From UHGV virus genome UHGV-0279031: a stretch of 17,049 bases of DNA; one strand, 5' to 3'. The DNA is from a virus. The position numbers and the translations under genes were made by a program. This document shows, in pieces, positions 8,314-13,983 of the stretch. The notes under the pieces were generated by a model. It was not told the DNA's origin and made no database searches. It worked only from the letters and a program-made list of their open reading frames with translations. Positions within the stretch are counted from its first letter, which is position 1; every line of letters starts with the position of its first letter.

Positions 8314-9700
8314 TGATTTCCATCAGCATTACACTCTGATTTTTTAATTCATCGATCACTTCCTCTGGACGGGAATCCTGATCGATAAATTTCAACGCCT
8401 GCAACACCCGAACCGCATCAATCTGACGTATATCACCGCCCTGACGCAATGACTGAACAGCCAGCGCGGAGGATGAGTCAAACACCTGGGCAGATACATC
8501 CAGTTCAGTGCGCACATCCACATTGCCACCGCAACTCTCTCCGATCCATTCCGCCATTATCTGGAGAATATTATCGAGGGCATCTTCGAGGGAGTTCGCC
8601 ATTGTATAAAGCGGCGAGTTTTCCTGCATTCGCTCTTCATTAGTCTGATCAACAGATTTGGTGGATGTATTTTCAGCACGCAGAAGTTTAGCGCCGGCAT
8701 GACGCATCTGATTTTCCAGCTTCTCAAGTGATGTTTCGCCAGATTCTATCGCTGCGCCACTATGTTCAACATATTCGAGGCCATTTTTTGTTCTGTCCTC
8801 AAAAATCGTAGCGGTGGATGCACCAACCGTCAGTTCTTCATTCCTGTCCAGCCCGTAGGCCACCAGCAATGGAACGCGGGCAACATGAAGAATATTGTCC
8901 TGCTCGCTCTGGCTTTGCCAGTGCTTGATATTCAGCAAGCCAAGATTAAGCAATGGCGGTGTACCACGCATAAATCCTGTTTTCTTCGTGTACAGTGTTA
9001 CCAGAGGAATATCATCACGGCTGGTATTCCATGACTCATGAAGCGTCCAGACAGATTCGCCATTAGTGCCTTCGCTACGTCGATAAATTTCAACTCGACG
9101 GGGCATAATATGGCGGATCTGCTCCACCTTCTTCTGCCCGAAATCATCACCATCAATAATGATGACCTCTTTTATACGCAAATCAGTGAGAACAACTTTC
9201 CCTTTTTCAACTTTCGATTTCCATCCAATAACCTGGCGTGGATTCAGCATCGTAACGTACGGACGACCACCGGTCGCGTTTTCATCGGCTTTTGTCCGAA
9301 TCTCTTTCATATCCGTTCGTGGATAGTCCACCAGCGCATGTGCCACACCATACTGAAATGCGAGGCTGAAAAATTGCTGTGCCCACACATCCAGTCGGCT
9401 CCCCTCCATGTCGATATTTTCTGCATATTCCCTGATTTTTGCCGGCGTTTCCTCACTCAATACTGTCGGCTCTGCAAATATGCGCCCAATATTTTGCTTG
9501 ATGCTTTCTTCATACACAGGAAGTAGCGTAGCCACAGACAGGCGTTTTTTATAAGCGTCTTCATCTTCGTTAGGCCATTTTGGGAGATAATTTTCCCCCT
9601 GCCTGCGCATTTCAAGCGTACCGCCCATCAGTGCGTCGTTAATATCCCACGCCTCCAGCATATCGTTATAGTCGAGGTTGGGTGTTGATATATCAGCCAT
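8294..9700 (-). CDS. Portal protein
   Basis: 468 aa, acidic; lies between the terminase large subunit and the MuF-like gene, the canonical portal position. No motif-level confirmation possible by eye. Confidence 0.6.
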   Translation of the reverse strand: MADISTPNLDYNDMLEAWDINDALMGGTLEMRRQGENYLPKWPNEDEDAYKKRLSVATLLPVYEESIKQNIGRIFAEPTVLSEETPAKIREYAENIDMEGSRLDVWAQQFFSLAFQYGVAHALVDYPRTDMKEIRTKADENATGGRPYVTMLNPRQVIGWKSKVEKGKVVLTDLRIKEVIIIDGDDFGQKKVEQIRHIMPRRVEIYRRSEGTNGESVWTLHESWNTSRDDIPLVTLYTKKTGFMRGTPPLLNLGLLNIKHWQSQSEQDNILHVARVPLLVAYGLDRNEELTVGASTATIFEDRTKNGLEYVEHSGAAIESGETSLEKLENQMRHAGAKLLRAENTSTKSVDQTNEERMQENSPLYTMANSLEDALDNILQIMAEWIGESCGGNVDVRTELDVSAQVFDSSSALAVQSLRQGGDIRQIDAVRVLQALKFIDQDSRPEEVIDELKNQSVMLMEINDANRE

Positions 9701-9702
9701 AA

Positions 9703-11013
9703 TTAAATCCGAAGTGATGTGACTCTTCCGGTCGGTTTGACAATAGGGAATTGCTTAACGATGAAATAACCTCCGGCATCATTCGGGTGATCATTGCCAG
9801 ATTTTTTATCAGGCTCCCCCTTCTCATCCCAGACCTGTTGCTCCAGAGATTCGGCATATAACGGGCAACGCTTCACATTAACTTTATAGCGACGCTCACC
9901 ATTGGCATTGCAGAACATTGCATTCATTGAGTTAACGCGATCTTTTACTGGCGGGTTCGAGCTGTTCACCACAACGTTAAAACCAGCCTACTTAAGCTGG
10001 GCTATATCCGTCGTACTTGCGTTACTTGATTTTCTGGAATCCCCGGAAGCATCTGGATAAATATAAATTTCCCTCACTTTCCGGTAATCATTCCCATCAT
10101 ACAGCCAGAAGCGTTCTTTAATGATGCGGATCATATCCGGCGTATCGTAGGCATTGATGATTTCAGTTACCGCACATGGAAGCCCCAAACGCAGCACATG
10201 GACGATTCCCGCCATCTTTCCAACGTTAAAATCCATCCCAATATAAATCGGCTCCCCTGGCTGCTCCACTTCTTCGCAATTATTCAGTTTCCGGTCAAAC
10301 TGATGGTAAACAGTACCACTTGTCAGGTTAGTAAACTGTCCTCGAAGATAGGCTTTAATCAGCTCTGGAGGGTATGATTCAAGAAGCGAAGGAATGTAAT
10401 CTGCTGGCAGGTTCTTTTCATTATCGAAAGTAGATGCCTGCACCAGACCATACAGTGAGGCCAGCTCTGTTTTTTCACGCACGGCTTTAACAAACTGCTC
10501 GTAGACAAATTTGAATCCTTCCGGCGTGGTTGTAACGTCAATACCGTTGCGAAGTCCATCAATCTTATAACGCATACGTGCAATTATCTTGCGCCACGCC
10601 GTTCTGGCTTTTTCCTTCGGCAAAATGTCCAGTTCATCCACCAACGCATTACCAATTTTGAAACCGACGATCGTTTGTGGCTTCTCCATCGATCTGCAGA
10701 TAGTGGTTCCCCGATACTGGCGTCCGTAATAAAAGTGAACCTCTTTATTTCCCTCATTAATTTTTACGTTCAATCCCCAGTCAGCAGCAACTTCTTCCAC
10801 TGTAGGGTAAAAAATATCGCGAATTTGGGGATACGTTGGCGCAAAATATCCCTGATTTATACCTGGATGCTCCCAAATCCCCTTGCATATGCCGCCACAC
10901 CCAACCCATGTTTTGCCCGAGCCAAAACCAGCAATATAGGCTTTAAATTTATGGGGCATTGAAAGAAATCGCGCCTGAGGCACATTAAGCGTCGGAGAGA
11001 TCATCTTCATCAC
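9703..11013 (-). pseudogene. Terminase large subunit interrupted by a single in-frame TAG (plus-strand 9988-9990)
   Basis: N-terminal ORF (341 aa) has Walker A GFGSGKT and a nuclease-domain start (IYIGMDFNVG). The 89-aa ORF 9703..9972 is in the same frame and ends with NDHPNDAGGY, which looks like a terminase nuclease C-terminal motif. Only TAG plus five sense codons separate them (...DIAQLK*AGFNVVVNSS...). Confidence 0.7.
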
Positions 11014-12079
11014 TCCTTACTCTGGCATCAACCACATTAATATTGATCGCCACAGGCTGGGGATATTCATTATCTTCCACCGTTTCGATCTCTTTGCGCA
11101 GCTTCTGGTTTTCCATTCTGCGCCGTTCAATTTCCAGTTCCTGTAGCCGCTTATCTGCACATAAAGCCCCGCCAGCAGAAAACAAACGCAACAATTCACG
11201 CCGGGCGGCAGCCTTATCCTCCAGCAGGATCTCAACGCCGAATTTTCCGAATTTTGCCCCTGCATATAATTGCCGCGCATCCCCATCAAGCAGAGTGGTA
11301 TCAGCCATATAAAGCTGTCCCGTTTCCTCACCGCAGCACTTCGGGCAGTCCGGATTGGGTATGGCGTTATCAACAAAGCCGAGGCCTCCATATTCCGGTT
11401 CGGGTTTGCCATCTCTGGAAGCCTGCGCCGCTGCCTTGTCGAATTCTGCTATATCGCGCCACTGGTAGAGATGATTCTCGCCCCAGCAATAACGGCAGTT
11501 AACACGGCGAAATTGTGCAAGCTGATTGGGGTCGGCCAGGACAATAGCCATCAACTGACTCACTAGTAAATCCAGGTCTGCGGTATAGCGTTTCTGGTAC
11601 TGATTGCGGAAGTAGCTGATAGCGCGAAAAACCCTGGCATTTCTAAGCATACGACTGGCGTTGCTGTTAGCTGTCGCACCTTGCCCCTCATAACCGGCTA
11701 GTCGGTACGCCTCTGTCGGCTTTTTACCCTGAGCAACAAGCATCGCAAACTTAGCCTGCTGGTCAGAAATGCCGAATTCATCGGGACAGAACGAAAATTC
11801 CTCCGCGTCGCCCTCATTCAGGCCCGCATCGAATACTGGCTTTTTTTCCTGAGATTTTTCGTTCCGCTTTTGTGCAGTCTGCGCAGATTTTTTCTGCGCA
11901 CTTTTTTGCGCAGTTTTGCACATTTCTGTCTGCGCATTTTTCGGAGTTTTTTTGATGTAACGACGGGCTGTTGCGTAATTCAGTCCCCTTGCTTCACACC
12001 ATGCCACCGGAGATATACCGGAGCGGGTGTATTCAGCAATATACTCCTGCTGCAACGCCCCCCAGTCCGGTCTGCTCAT
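10985..12079 (-). CDS. Putative terminase small subunit / DNA-packaging DNA-binding protein
   Basis: 364 aa immediately upstream of and overlapping the terminase large subunit; N-terminal HTH-like segment, Cys cluster (CRYCW...CPKCC), basic AQK-rich stretch. Larger than a typical small subunit, so the call is positional. Confidence 0.4.
   Translation of the reverse strand: MSRPDWGALQQEYIAEYTRSGISPVAWCEARGLNYATARRYIKKTPKNAQTEMCKTAQKSAQKKSAQTAQKRNEKSQEKKPVFDAGLNEGDAEEFSFCPDEFGISDQQAKFAMLVAQGKKPTEAYRLAGYEGQGATANSNASRMLRNARVFRAISYFRNQYQKRYTADLDLLVSQLMAIVLADPNQLAQFRRVNCRYCWGENHLYQWRDIAEFDKAAAQASRDGKPEPEYGGLGFVDNAIPNPDCPKCCGEETGQLYMADTTLLDGDARQLYAGAKFGKFGVEILLEDKAAARRELLRLFSAGGALCADKRLQELEIERRRMENQKLRKEIETVEDNEYPQPVAININVVDARVRSDEDDLSDA
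11881..11946. repeat. Array of TGCGCA-like palindromic hexamers, each followed by a T-tract, inside the 5' part of the terS candidate
   Basis: TGTGCA 11881, TGCGCA 11890, TGCGCA 11905, TGCGCA 11917, TGCACA 11927, TGCGCA 11941; spacings of 9-15 bp; T4-7 tracts between them. Confidence 0.6.
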
Positions 12080-12082
12080 CAG

Positions 12083-12334
12083 TTAGTCCTGATTTTTATC
12101 CACCCTGAGTAGTTCGCGCAGAGCAAAGGCATCCCCTTTTCTGGCAAGCTTAAACAATGCCGCTCGTAACTCGGCTTCACCTTTCGCTCTGCCCTTACGG
12201 ATGGCCGCATAAAAATCTGTCATTGCTTCCCGATTTTCTTTCAGTCGGTTCAGATCAACATCCAGAACGTCAGCGATTTGTTGTGCAGTCATCCGGCACG
12301 CTGCCAGAGACTCGACTTTCGAATACGGAATCAT
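12083..12334 (-). CDS. Small helix-turn-helix-like protein (83 aa)
   Basis: GGGGGTGA Shine-Dalgarno 3 nt upstream of ATG 12334; contains MTAQQIADVLDVDLNRL, an HTH-like segment; tightly packed immediately upstream of the terS candidate. Confidence 0.4.
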   Translation of the reverse strand: MIPYSKVESLAACRMTAQQIADVLDVDLNRLKENREAMTDFYAAIRKGRAKGEAELRAALFKLARKGDAFALRELLRVDKNQD

Positions 12335-13220
12335 TTGTCACCCCCATTGATATGCAGGGTGTCTTCTTCCTGTATTTTTCGTGAAGGATTTTTACTGCAG
12401 CGTTGTTCCAGGTGACCTGATGGTGAATGCGTTTATGACTGGCACCCATAAGTGAGATTTTTACGCACGACGGCGCATACATGACGGAGTAAAAACTTTT
12501 AACGTAGGTTCCGGAATCCAGATACAGCTCGGTCATTCCGCCGCTGTTTTTCTGCGTCTGTTTCTGCCCTAACTGGACAGCACCGATCGTCATAAACAAT
12601 TCACCACAGCGACCGAGATTCGTGTACGTATTCACATCCTCGTTAATGCGCCCCATGAATGAGAACGGTCGATCAACCGAACAGATAAAGCTGTTCATTG
12701 CCTTGCGTTTCACCCACGAAGCATGGCCGCCATTGTCACCAAGAAAATCCCCGCCCTGCGACATAGCGATGGAAAGAGCAGGTATTGATTCGTAGTACGC
12801 AAGCATTTCAGAAAGGATCTCATCCAGTTTCCTTATCGGGAAATAGGCCTGGTCATAGTTGCGATCCACCCGAAACTGGAACTCGTGATAATCATCATCG
12901 AGCTGAATGAAGTATTTACACCCGACCAGTTTTGCCTGGTCGAAACAGGCATTACGGGCGTAAAAAATTGAGCGGCGGTCACTAAAATTATCGGCTTCGT
13001 CAAAACGACTAGCAATATCGGCTTTGGAAAATACCAGCACCTGTTCACCAAATTCAGCCATGTACTGATGCCGTGTCTTATCTTCATCATCAACAACGAT
13101 AAAAATTTTCCCGGTATAGCCAGCACGACGCAACGTCCGGTAAGTCAGAACTTTGTCCGGTCGCCCGTGAGTCAGAATAAAGGCGCAAAAATCATCACGC
13201 ATATTCCTCCTCCCCGCCAT
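12270..13220 (-). CDS. Uncharacterised enzyme-like protein with two acidic clusters (VVDDED, QLDDDY)
   Basis: 316-aa ORF; start overlaps the ParB-like gene stop (alternative ATG at 13202 preceded by GGAGGAGG). Strand-then-acidic pattern AFILTHGR...IFIVVDDED...YFIQLDDDY resembles DxD-type nucleotide-dependent transferases, but this is motif-level inference only. Confidence 0.3.
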   Translation of the reverse strand: MAGRRNMRDDFCAFILTHGRPDKVLTYRTLRRAGYTGKIFIVVDDEDKTRHQYMAEFGEQVLVFSKADIASRFDEADNFSDRRSIFYARNACFDQAKLVGCKYFIQLDDDYHEFQFRVDRNYDQAYFPIRKLDEILSEMLAYYESIPALSIAMSQGGDFLGDNGGHASWVKRKAMNSFICSVDRPFSFMGRINEDVNTYTNLGRCGELFMTIGAVQLGQKQTQKNSGGMTELYLDSGTYVKSFYSVMYAPSCVKISLMGASHKRIHHQVTWNNAAVKILHEKYRKKTPCISMGVTNDSVFESRVSGSVPDDCTTNR

Positions 13221-13983
13221 GCATGATCTCCACCATGCGCTGCGTCATTCGGACAAATCCATTTTCAATAGCCTGCTGATAATCAATGATCACCAGCGCC
13301 GACTCCTCGAAAAGGCACTGAATTTCAGCGGGGGCATGAGCGTAATAGTCCGCAATTCTGCTGAAATTAAACACCGTGTGACGTTCTGCTGCACACAGGA
13401 GGAATTTCTCAATATCAGGATCAAGGGACGCCGAACGTATCCGGCTGATCAGCTCCTGAGTTTTCGTATCGTCGTACAGTTCACTGATATCCGGTTTACC
13501 GCCTGACGGCTCATAAACAGGCGTATCAATTTTCGTCGTATACGGCTCCTCCTCATTTCCTGTACCGGGCAAAACATCCGTCAACAGTTCATCAATTTCT
13601 GCCGGGATGAAGCCTGTCAGGGAGACATCAAAATCAGCATTGATTAGGTCCGACAGCTCCATCCGCAACAGATCTTCATCCCAGCCAGCATTCATCGGCA
13701 GGCGATTATCTGCCAGGCGGTACGCCTTTTTCTGCTCATCCGTCAGGCCAGACAGAACAATGACCGGAACAGAATCCATTTTGAGCATTTCAGCCGCCAT
13801 AACACGACCGTGACCCGCAATAATTTCGCCCTTTTCGTCAATCAGCACCGGATTAGTCCAGCCGAATTGCTTAATACTTTCTACCAGTTGTGCCACCTGC
13901 TCAGTACTGTGCGTCCTGGCGTTGTGCGCATACGGTGACAATTCTTGTAATGGGCGATAGACTATCTTTAATTTCTCGCTCAT
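13195..13983 (-). CDS. ParB/sulfiredoxin-like N-terminal domain protein
   Basis: 262 aa; N-terminal region with ...PVLIDEKGEIIAGHGRVMAAEML..., a DGxHR-like ParB-fold motif; this is the position held by ynaK in Rac-like prophages, directly after trkG. Confidence 0.55.
   Translation of the reverse strand: MSEKLKIVYRPLQELSPYAHNARTHSTEQVAQLVESIKQFGWTNPVLIDEKGEIIAGHGRVMAAEMLKMDSVPVIVLSGLTDEQKKAYRLADNRLPMNAGWDEDLLRMELSDLINADFDVSLTGFIPAEIDELLTDVLPGTGNEEEPYTTKIDTPVYEPSGGKPDISELYDDTKTQELISRIRSASLDPDIEKFLLCAAERHTVFNFSRIADYYAHAPAEIQCLFEESALVIIDYQQAIENGFVRMTQRMVEIMHGGEEEYA

What the first reader, a model, noticed from the sequence alone, without database searches (positions are those of the whole stretch)
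11881..11946. Phased TGCGCA/T-tract repeat array inside the 5' region of the terS candidate: possible pac site
Six TGYRCA palindromic hexamers at 9-15 bp spacing, each followed by a T4-7 tract, occupy about 65 bp. In pac-type phages the packaging recognition site often lies within terS and consists of phased repeats. The array also forces an AQK-rich low-complexity stretch into the protein, suggesting the DNA signal is the constrained element.
Basis: partly seen in the sequence, partly recalled or inferred. Interest (0 to 1): 0.5.

Follow-up and report, generated by a model that had tools for sequence, protein, structure and literature searches.

The report
Likely packaging signal inside small-terminase gene
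Six copies of the DNA word TGCGCA (four exact, two one base off) sit inside the small-terminase gene of a defective Rac-like E. coli prophage; they are conserved as DNA across about 80 bacterial species and change together with the protein's own N-terminal DNA-binding helix, so they are most likely the signal that marks phage DNA for packaging, built like the classic phage P1 pac site.

Summary
The array is real. Six TGYRCA hexamers (four exact TGCGCA) lie at 11871-11936, against at most three in any 70 bp of 500 simulated windows. They lie in the DNA that codes a low-confidence Lys/Ala/Gln linker of a genuine small terminase (TerS, 10985-12079, minus strand). The constraint is on the DNA, not the peptide. 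Among 69 species-level relatives, TGCGCA recurs 3-10 times at the same place, in all three reading frames and coding more than 35 different tripeptides. Synonymous resampling of the peptide almost never gives the observed count.

The hexamer tracks one residue of the TerS N-terminal helix-turn-helix. Arg39 goes with TGCGCA (69/69 loci) and Lys39 with TGCGAA (16/16). A second switch, RY to TR, gives GATCAT in Shiga-toxin phages. Domain and array move together between unrelated TerS bodies. The domain is homologous to phage P1 PacA, whose proven pac site is a TGATCA hexamer array at the same place in pacA.

Best reading: a P1-type pac recognition site with a new hexamer, in one cluster and without Dam sites. 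Binding and cleavage are inferred, not shown. The spacing is not helically phased. This copy sits in a dead prophage (terL nonsense codon, 3.3-kb head-gene deletion).

The parts
10985..12079 (-). terS, small terminase subunit, 364 aa
   Evidence: ORF. Pfam Terminase_2 E 3.3e-8. PHROG 51 E 2.6e-75. It differs at only 4 nt from the terS of GenBank phage ON470595.
11948..12079 (-). Codes the N-terminal three-helix (HTH-like) domain, aa 1-44, with predicted recognition helix T37-A-R39-R-Y-I-K43
   Evidence: AF2 gives helices at 6-20, 24-30 and 35-38 with pLDDT 72-80. hhalign to the PacA N-termini gives probability 98.2%. The N-terminal 80 aa hit PHROG 1711, the PacA family, at E 1.7e-5. Residue 39 is the only column that separates the hexamer classes.
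11798..11947 (-). Codes the low-complexity Lys/Ala/Gln linker, aa 45-94, which carries the array
   Evidence: AF2 pLDDT is below 50 for aa 45-94. Translation.
11871..11936 (.). The hexamer array as a whole: six TGYRCA sites, proposed pac recognition site
11931..11936 (.). Site 1, TGCGCA (gene nt 144-149, codons aaT GCG CAg)
   Evidence: Invariant in 55 distinct Rac-type terS.
11917..11922 (.). Site 2, degenerate: TGTGCA on the coding strand (gene nt 158-163, frame aTG TGC Aaa = M-C-K). It is TGCGCA in most relatives.
   Evidence: pi 0.37 at the third base.
11907..11912 (.). Site 3, TGCGCA (gene nt 168-173)
11895..11900 (.). Site 4, TGCGCA (gene nt 180-185). It is TGCGCG in some relatives.
11880..11885 (.). 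Site 5, TGCGCA (gene nt 195-200)
11871..11876 (.). Site 6, degenerate: TGCACA on the coding strand (gene nt 204-209). It is TGCGCA in most relatives.
   Evidence: pi 0.49 at the fourth base.
11117..11716 (-). Codes the Terminase_2 body of TerS (aa 122-321), including the CRYC...CPKC zinc-ribbon-like insert
   Evidence: Pfam. Four invariant Cys in alignment A1. The best fold matches are small terminases, but none is significant.
9700..11013 (-). terL, large terminase (Terminase_6N/6C), the presumed nuclease/motor partner. Here it is broken by a CAG>TAG nonsense codon at 9988-9990.
   Evidence: Pfam. In-frame stop, and comparison with ON470595 (K-Q-A against K-*-A).

Best explanation
The array is a cis-acting DNA element embedded in the coding sequence of the small terminase. 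It is most likely the recognition part of the phage's pac (packaging initiation) site.

TerS has an extra N-terminal three-helix DNA-binding domain (aa 1-44). A flexible linker joins it to a conventional Terminase_2 oligomerising body. The DNA that codes the linker carries six copies of the palindromic hexamer TGCGCA; in this window four are exact and two are one base off.

The proposed mechanism has four steps:
- Several N-terminal domains of one TerS oligomer each read one hexamer, with residue 39 of the recognition helix contacting base pair 5.
- This gives high-avidity, phage-specific capture of concatemeric DNA.
- The large terminase TerL then cuts nearby.
- Headful packaging proceeds, probably in the terS-to-terL direction.

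Shown here: the enrichment, the DNA-level conservation, the covariation with the helix, the co-transfer of domain and array, and the homology of the domain to P1 PacA. Inferred: binding, cleavage, direction and headful mode.

In this particular window the prophage is defective, so this copy is probably an inactive relic. Its array is base-for-base identical to that of GenBank phage record ON470595, whose terL has a Gln (Q) codon where this window has TAG.
For: 1. Enrichment. Six TGYRCA lie in 66 bp, against a maximum of three in 500 simulations.

2. Constraint on the DNA rather than the peptide.
- Synonymous resampling gives P about 1.5e-4 to 3.5e-4 for the window. For relatives L048, L005 and L091 the observed 6-7 copies were never reached in 20,000 trials.
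- TGCGCA occurs in all three frames (307/90/27) and codes more than 35 tripeptides. Of the 69 loci with TGCGCA sites, 65 use at least two frames.
- Klebsiella phages at 39% protein identity carry six TGCGCA as ACT GCG CAA, TTG CGC ACT and AAG TGC GCA.

3. Position-specific conservation.
- In the 69 loci with an A-R-R helix, out of 80 species-level loci, the bin at gene nt 120-179 holds 269 hexamers. Flanking 60-nt bins hold 0-4.
- 66 of these 69 loci have at least 3 copies. The three exceptions are truncated genes.
- In 55 distinct Rac-type genes, nucleotide diversity is 0.036 at hexamer positions and 0.087 at spacer positions.

4. Covariation with the protein.
- Residue 39 is Arg in 69/69 TGCGCA loci and Lys in 16/16 TGCGAA loci. 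It is the only domain column that separates the two classes.
- There is an independent switch inside the Shiga-toxin-phage TerS family, where the bodies are 75% identical. Helix TARRYIK goes with TGCGCA x5-6, and helix TARTRIK goes with GATCAT x4-5.

5. Modularity. The same domain plus array is fused to unrelated TerS bodies: PHROG 51 against PHROG 370, and phages phiARM81mr, RothC, Pmp11 and PSTCR3.

6. Reverse search. Of 80 viral contigs with three closely spaced TGCGCA, 59 have the domain within 700 nt.

7. Homology to a proven system.
- The N-domain against the P1/D6 PacA N-termini gives hhalign probability 98.2%, E 3.9e-14. The PHROG 1711 (PacA) hit is E 1.7e-5.
- P1 pacA carries TGATCA/G hexamers at gene nt 194-233 and 324-380 around the annotated pac cleavage sites at nt 276-285.
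- Synonymous mutation of those hexamers lowers P1 packaging about 9-fold (PMC10028697).

8. Loss of constraint. In Rac-SA53 the N-domain was lost by a deletion-fusion, and three of the hexamers are mutated.
Against: - There are no experimental data on binding, cleavage or virion ends for this family. Seven literature searches found nothing on it.
- The window has a single cluster. P1 has two clusters flanking the cut. No IHF site was looked for.
- Spacing (7-16 bp, irregular) does not fit a simple one-face-of-the-helix model.
- The R39/K39 covariation may reflect only one or two evolutionary events, so 69 against 16 is not 85 independent observations.
- The AF2 model is poor overall (mean pLDDT 49, shallow alignment), and the fold search gave no significant match.
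- The whole first 240 nt have low synonymous diversity. That could partly reflect recent recombinational spread of the module rather than site-by-site selection.
- This copy lies in a defective prophage.
Confidence: 0.7

Rival explanations
1. The hexamers are bound by the TerS N-terminal domain, but the purpose is not packaging initiation. For example, TerS could bind its own gene to regulate its expression, or to act as a roadblock or anchor.
For: The covariation and co-transfer show only that domain and site belong together, not what the complex does. The site lies inside the regulator's own gene.
Against: The domain occurs only at the N-terminus of small terminases in every family found (PHROGs 51, 370 and 1711). 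Its closest characterised relative, P1 PacA, uses such an array as pac (PMC10028697). No promoter-like site lies nearby.
Confidence: 0.12
2. The array is the binding site of some other protein, such as the ParB-like protein encoded 1.1 kb upstream or a host factor. The link to the TerS N-domain is indirect.
For: A ParB_N-like gene (13195-13983) and a glycosyltransferase gene lie just upstream of terS in this prophage. ParB proteins bind repeated palindromic sites.
Against: Klebsiella, Yersinia, Aeromonas, Pasteurella and Stx phages with the same array type have quite different upstream genes and no ParB. The hexamer sequence tracks a residue of TerS itself.
Confidence: 0.06
3. The array acts through nucleic-acid structure. 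Adjacent palindromic hexamers form hairpins in the mRNA, or form hairpin-plus-T-run terminators for antisense (+ strand) transcription.
For: The RNA fold of the array gives z = -4.45. Two terminator-like hairpins lie on the + strand at 11869-11887 and 11880-11900, followed by T6.
Against: Any set of palindromes would fold this way. The TGCGAA class is mostly direct, non-palindromic repeats (69 direct against 26 inverted copies). The Stx GATCAT class has only a 4-bp palindromic core. Spacings, and so stems and loops, are not conserved. There is no Rfam match.
Confidence: 0.05
4. The array is a by-product of a low-complexity AQK peptide repeat or of recent tandem duplication (slippage), with no function as DNA.
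For: Five of the six sites code x-Ala-Gln. Copy number varies from 4 to 6 through in-frame unit deletions in close relatives (L045, L046, L074).
Against: Synonymous resampling rejects the peptide explanation. The sites use three frames and more than 35 tripeptides. The array is conserved at 39% protein identity and across about 80 species, while the spacers drift. The hexamer covaries with a distant residue.
Confidence: 0.03

Closest known systems
Bacteriophage P1 pac site and PacA (pacase small subunit)
   Same: - Both have several copies of a palindromic hexamer inside the 5' third of the small-terminase gene, just downstream of the part that codes an N-terminal HTH-like domain.
- In both, the hexamers sit in more than one reading frame.
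- The N-terminal domains are homologous (hhalign probability 98.2%, shared ...N-T-A-R-R-Y-[IL]... helix).
   Different: - The hexamer is TGCGCA, not TGATCA/G, so it has no GATC and no Dam-methylation switch.
- There is one cluster of six in 66 bp, instead of 4 + 3(4) flanking the cut about 100 bp apart.
- No IHF site is known.
- The rest of TerS is a Terminase_2 body with a zinc-ribbon insert, not the PacA body.
- The partner TerL is Terminase_6 type, not PacB.
SPP1 / SF6 pac (pacL-pacC-pacR) recognised by the Terminase_2 small terminase G1P
   Same: The TerS body belongs to the same Pfam family (Terminase_2). From my own knowledge, not tested here, part of the SPP1 pac site (pacR) lies in the 5' end of the terS gene and consists of repeated short boxes. 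The SF6 TerS DNA-binding domain is among the best (non-significant) fold matches.
   Different: SPP1 G1P has no extra PacA-like N-terminal domain. Its recognition is thought to depend on bent DNA and low-specificity HTH contacts. Here an additional domain with a readable hexamer specificity is present.
P22 / Sf6 pac sites inside terS
   Same: The packaging signal is embedded in the coding sequence of the small terminase. It can be changed at wobble positions without changing the protein (PMC11260489).
   Different: P22 pac is a single site, 22 bp by my recollection, not an array of repeated hexamers. P22 gp3 is an unrelated TerS family.
Small terminase of 933W-type Shiga-toxin phages (PHROG 370)
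   Same: It has the same N-terminal domain, followed by an array at the same place. One allele carries TGCGCA x5-6, like this window.
   Different: The body of the protein is different. The common allele has helix TARTRIK and four or five GATCAT units at an exact 12-nt period, which contain Dam sites as in P1.

Membership tests
P1-type pac site (hexamer array in pacA read by PacA) | Several copies of one hexanucleotide within the 5' part of the small-terminase coding sequence | tested here: met
   Six TGYRCA (four exact TGCGCA) lie at gene nt 144-209.
P1-type pac site (hexamer array in pacA read by PacA) | The small terminase carries a PacA-like N-terminal DNA-binding domain | tested here: met
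   hhalign probability 98.2%, E 3.9e-14. BLASTP gives 30% identity over 43 aa, E 0.001. The PHROG 1711 hit is E 1.7e-5, and P1 PacA itself is PHROG 1711.
P1-type pac site (hexamer array in pacA read by PacA) | Two hexamer clusters flanking the cleavage region, with an IHF site between them | tested here: not met
   The window gene has one cluster only; the next TGYRCA is at gene nt 561. A second cluster at nt 348-403 exists only in a Klebsiella/Enterobacter subclass. No IHF site was searched for.
P1-type pac site (hexamer array in pacA read by PacA) | Hexamers contain GATC, and cleavage is controlled by Dam methylation | tested here: not met
   TGCGCA has no GATC. The Stx-phage allele (GATCAT) does.
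P1-type pac site (hexamer array in pacA read by PacA) | Terminase binds the hexamers and cuts nearby to start headful packaging | not testable with these tools
   This needs EMSA or footprinting, virion end mapping or transduction assays.
Terminase_2 small terminase (Pfam PF03592) | Match to the family profile above the curated cut-off | tested here: met
   34.7 bits against a cut-off of 26.1, aa 122-321. PHROG 51 'terminase small subunit' E 2.6e-75.
Intrinsically bent, helically phased pac (SPP1-like) | Repeats or A-tracts phased at about 10.5 bp | tested here: not met
   Window spacing is 9, 15, 12, 10 and 14. Family spacing peaks at 7, 9, 12, 14 and 16. No curvature model was run.

The most novel reading that the evidence does not exclude
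The PacA-like N-terminal domain and the hexamer array coded immediately after it form a portable packaging-specificity cassette with a simple, readable recognition code. Arg39 goes with TGCGCA, Lys39 with TGCGAA, and helix RY to TR with GATCAT.

The cassette has been swapped between unrelated small-terminase bodies across Enterobacterales, Vibrio, Aeromonas and Pasteurella. It includes the medically important Shiga-toxin phages, whose GATCAT arrays would then be Dam-regulated pac sites like that of P1. If so, pac sites of many prophages could be read from sequence, and packaging specificity could be re-programmed by a one- or two-residue change plus a matching array.
Probability: 0.5. Interest if true: 0.75.

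Novelty: new variant of a known kind. Interest (0 to 1): 0.62.

Why it matters
How small terminases recognise their own DNA is one of the less well understood steps of phage assembly, and few pac sites have been defined. If this reading holds, it has four consequences.
- It gives a sequence-level prediction of the pac site for a prophage module present in 883 of 5,426 complete E. coli genomes and in at least 80 other species.
- It extends the P1 paradigm to lambdoid phages, including Shiga-toxin phages.
- It offers a one-residue / one-base-pair specificity pair (R39/K39 with C/A at hexamer position 5) that can be tested directly.
- pac sites fix where lateral and generalized transduction start, so the prediction bears on which host genes these prophages can mobilise. 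It also bears on the design of phagemids and transducing particles.

Tried and rejected
- Literature. Searches for TGCGCA + pac site, Rac/small terminase/pac, the Yersinia and Rac-SA53 phages, PacA/hexanucleotide and 933W/pac found no description of this array. They yielded only the P1 facts (PMC10028697), the statement that the ES18 pac site is unknown (PMC11260489), and the use of 933W as a headful-type reference (PMC6029569).
- RNA and promoter scans. Rfam gave no match and no promoter-like site was found.
- Helical phasing. Rejected on the spacing data.
- Second hexamer cluster, as in P1. Absent from the window gene.
- Structure. The AF2 model from a shallow alignment was poor (mean pLDDT 49). 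Foldseek against the PDB gave nothing significant. A sequence search of the PDB with the N-domain profile found nothing, and the same was true for TerL.
- D6 PacA. No clear repeated hexamer could be seen, so the P1 comparison rests on P1 itself.
- Pfam on the N-domain alone. Only noise, apart from a weak HTH_23 hit in PSTCR3.
- Other repeats. Those downstream of the different N-domains of Actinobacillus phage pPE4 (GTTTCCAC/GTGGAAA) and of L083 (ATCGCGAA x3) are single-locus, two- or three-copy patterns. I treat them as anecdotes only.
- Reverse search exceptions. The 21 of 80 hexamer clusters without the domain are a mix of simple tandem repeats and intergenic repeats in unrelated high-GC phages. 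None looked like a satellite carrying a copied pac site.

Full report
**Context**

The window is a Rac-like lambdoid prophage of E. coli with its genes on the minus strand. In order they are:
- lysis genes;
- the trkG moron;
- a ParB_N-like gene;
- a TAGT-family glycosyltransferase;
- an 83-codon ORF;
- terS (10985-12079, 364 aa; Pfam Terminase_2 E 3.3e-8, PHROG 51 E 2.6e-75);
- terL (Terminase_6N/6C);
- portal (DUF4055);
- a MuF-like gene;
- the tape measure gene.

The same terS region is 99.6-99.7% identical in ten GenBank phage records. The first 282 nt of the gene occur in 883 of 5,426 complete E. coli genomes.

**The observation**

Six TGYRCA hexamers start at 11871, 11880, 11895, 11907, 11917 and 11931. 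Four are exact TGCGCA. No 70-bp stretch in 500 Markov-2 simulations of the window held more than three.

Only four of the six hexamers are followed by a T run of 4 or more. The spacing (9, 15, 12, 10, 14) is irregular.

On the coding strand the sites are:
- five of the form xxT GCR CAR, coding (N/T/S)-A-Q;
- one in another frame, aTG TGC Aaa, coding M-C-K.

**The constraint is on the DNA**

- Redrawing synonymous codons for the same peptide from the window's own codon usage gives 1.57 TGYRCA on average against 6 observed (P about 1.5e-4). It gives 0.44 TGCGCA against 4 observed (P about 3.5e-4). For relatives with 6-7 exact copies the observed number was never reached in 20,000 draws.
- Klebsiella phage homologues at 39% protein identity carry six TGCGCA at the same place in three reading frames: ACT GCG CAA, TTG CGC ACT and AAG TGC GCA.
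- Among 80 IMG/VR relatives the canonical E. coli array is six exact TGCGCA. The two odd hexamers of the window are single transitions from that consensus. Copy number varies from 4 to 6 through in-frame unit deletions.
- In 55 distinct Rac-type genes, nucleotide diversity is 0.036 at hexamer positions and 0.087 in the spacers.

**A wider sample**

I scanned one genome per bacterial species for the N-terminal 44 residues. This gave 80 loci from Enterobacterales, Vibrio and Aeromonas.

Results for the 69 loci whose helix reads A-R-R:
- TGCGCA occurs on average 4.97 times in gene nt 120-300.
- 66 of the 69 loci have at least three copies, and the three exceptions are truncated genes.
- The 60-nt bin starting at +120 holds 269 hexamers, against 0-4 in flanking bins over +-1.5 kb.
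- The hexamers lie in all three frames (307/90/27) and code more than 35 different tripeptides.
- The flanks are A-rich on the coding strand. Spacings peak at 7, 9, 12, 14 and 16 bp, so there is no helical phasing.

**Covariation with the protein**

The 11 loci with helix A-K-R have no TGCGCA at all. They have TGCGAA/TTCGCA instead, five copies on average.

With further phage examples added, residue 39 is Arg in 69/69 TGCGCA loci and Lys in 16/16 TGCGAA loci. It is the only column of the domain that separates the two classes. Because relatives share ancestry, this may be one event.

A second, independent switch exists inside the Shiga-toxin-phage TerS family:
- Proteins 75% identical to the TARTRIK allele, sharing the first 17 residues, have helix TARRYIK followed by TGCGCA x5-6.
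- The others have helix TARTRIK followed by GATCAT x4-5 at an exact 12-nt period.

**Modularity**

The domain and its array are fused to unrelated TerS bodies:
- PHROG 51 here;
- PHROG 370 in phiARM81mr, RothC, Pmp11 and the Stx phages;
- a shorter Terminase_2 body in PSTCR3.

In Pasteurella phage Pmp11 about eight TGCGAA lie in two frames, as TGC GAA (C-E) and as ACT GCG AAx.

Running the search the other way, 59 of 80 viral contigs with three closely spaced TGCGCA have the domain within 700 nt. The remaining 21 are unrelated repeats.

In Rac-SA53 the N-domain was lost by a deletion-fusion and three hexamers have decayed. That is what neutral drift at 89% identity predicts.

**Link to a proven system**

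- The N-domain profile aligns to the N-termini of P1 and D6 PacA with probability 98.2%.
- It hits the PacA PHROG 1711 at E 1.7e-5.
- It shares the motif N-T-A-R-R-Y-[IL] with PacA.
- In the annotated P1 genome, pacA carries TGATCA/G at gene nt 194, 201, 213 and 228 and at nt 324, 336, 347 and 375. These lie around the annotated pac cleavage sites at nt 276-285 and an IHF site.
- P1 pac is described as 161 bp within pacA, with seven hexamers that contain Dam sites. Recoding them synonymously lowered P1 packaging about 9-fold (PMC10028697).

**Structure**

An AlphaFold2 model from a shallow alignment is poor overall (mean pLDDT 49) but informative in parts:
- aa 1-44 form three helices at pLDDT 72-80;
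- aa 45-94 have pLDDT below 50;
- aa 95-165 reach pLDDT 74-90.

The array therefore sits in DNA that codes a probably disordered linker, where the protein tolerates almost any sequence. The best fold matches are small terminases, but none is significant.

**Mechanism proposed**

- Several N-domains of a TerS oligomer each bind one hexamer.
- This captures phage DNA with high avidity.
- TerL then cuts nearby, and headful packaging follows.

Keeping the site inside the gene segment next to the domain that reads it means the pair is inherited together when modules recombine. This fits the low synonymous diversity of gene nt 1-240. Binding, cutting, direction and headful mode are inferences.

**Rivals**

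- Peptide repeat or slippage alone is rejected.
- Hairpins or antisense terminators are a trivial consequence of palindromes, and the non-palindromic classes do not share them.
- Another binding protein such as the upstream ParB-like gene product is unlikely, because other hosts of the array lack that gene.
- A non-packaging role for TerS binding cannot be excluded without experiments.

**State of this copy**

The window's terL has a CAG>TAG nonsense codon at 9988-9990. About 3.3 kb of head and tail genes are deleted relative to ON470595. This prophage cannot package, and its array is probably a recent relic. The array is nevertheless identical to that of ON470595.

**Verdict**

It is best filed as a new variant of the P1-type pac architecture: a new hexamer, one cluster, no Dam sites, and a different terminase body. 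I found no description of it in the literature library searched.

Noticed in passing
window 9988-9990 (minus strand): terL carries an in-frame TAG where ON470595 has a Gln (Q) codon, presumably CAG: ...IAQLK*AGF against ...IAQLKQAGF. This splits the large terminase into ORFs of 341 and 89 aa.
   Followed up: yes
window about 5748 (junction); L001 3439-6763: About 3.3 kb present in phage ON470595 is missing from the window. The missing stretch runs from the BIG2-domain protein, through the head-tail genes, into the coat protein gene. Together with the terL stop, this makes the prophage defective.
   Followed up: partly
window 12270-13220 and 13195-13983 (minus strand): A TET-associated-glycosyltransferase-family gene (Pfam TAGT E 4e-34; the PHROG is annotated as a beta-glucosyl-HMC glucosyltransferase) overlaps a ParB_N-like gene directly upstream of terS. 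No TET/JBP or hydroxymethylase gene is in the window. What it glycosylates is unclear.
   Followed up: no
window 12083-12334 (minus strand): The 83-aa ORF between the glycosyltransferase gene and terS matches only the middle (positions 145-218 of 319) of PHROG 309 'terminase small subunit' (E 8e-23). It may be a fragment or a small accessory packaging protein.
   Followed up: no
L173 1501-2307 (Stx2 phage 24B) and L296-L351: 933W-type Shiga-toxin phage small terminases have the same N-terminal domain, followed by four or five GATCAT units at an exact 12-nt period (IDHE IDHK TDHE IDHD). Each unit holds a Dam site, as in P1 pac. A sister allele (L333-L350) has helix TARRYIK and TGCGCA x5-6 instead.
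   Followed up: partly
L005, L104, L121 gene nt 348-403: A Klebsiella/Enterobacter subclass has a second group of two or three TGCGCA about 150-200 nt after the first array, inside the Terminase_2 HTH coding region (VAQAIAQ...VRT). This bipartite layout recalls P1. It is absent from the window gene.
   Followed up: partly
L002 1351-2379 (phage Rac-SA53): The terS is annotated 'gpOterS; fusion of two genes by deletion'. The PacA-like N-domain is gone, and the hexamers downstream read TTCGCA, TGCGCT and TGCCCA, consistent with loss of constraint.
   Followed up: partly
L003 1231-2322 (Actinobacillus phage vB_Apl-pPE4): The terS body is 93% identical in DNA to the E. coli gene, which is odd for a Pasteurellaceae phage. 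It has a different N-terminal HTH, followed by GTTTCCAC x2 and GTGGAAA x2 at the place where the TGCGCA array would be.
   Followed up: no
window 11869-11900 (+ strand): Neighbouring hexamers pair into 8-bp hairpins followed by T6, giving two terminator-like hits for antisense transcription. The RNA fold of the array has z = -4.45. This is probably a side effect of the palindromes.
   Followed up: partly
window 11330-11497 (minus strand; TerS aa 195-250): The Terminase_2 body contains an insert with four invariant cysteines (CRYCWG ... CPKCCG), which looks like a zinc ribbon. It is conserved down to 39% identity.
   Followed up: no
window 11917-11922 and 11871-11876: Both degenerate hexamers differ from TGCGCA by a transition at the central CpG (TGTGCA, TGCACA). 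Variants seen in relatives are TGCGTA (also a transition at a CpG cytosine) and TGCGCG (a transition outside the CpG). The CpG changes are the pattern expected from deamination if GCGC were cytosine-methylated. This is pure speculation.
   Followed up: no
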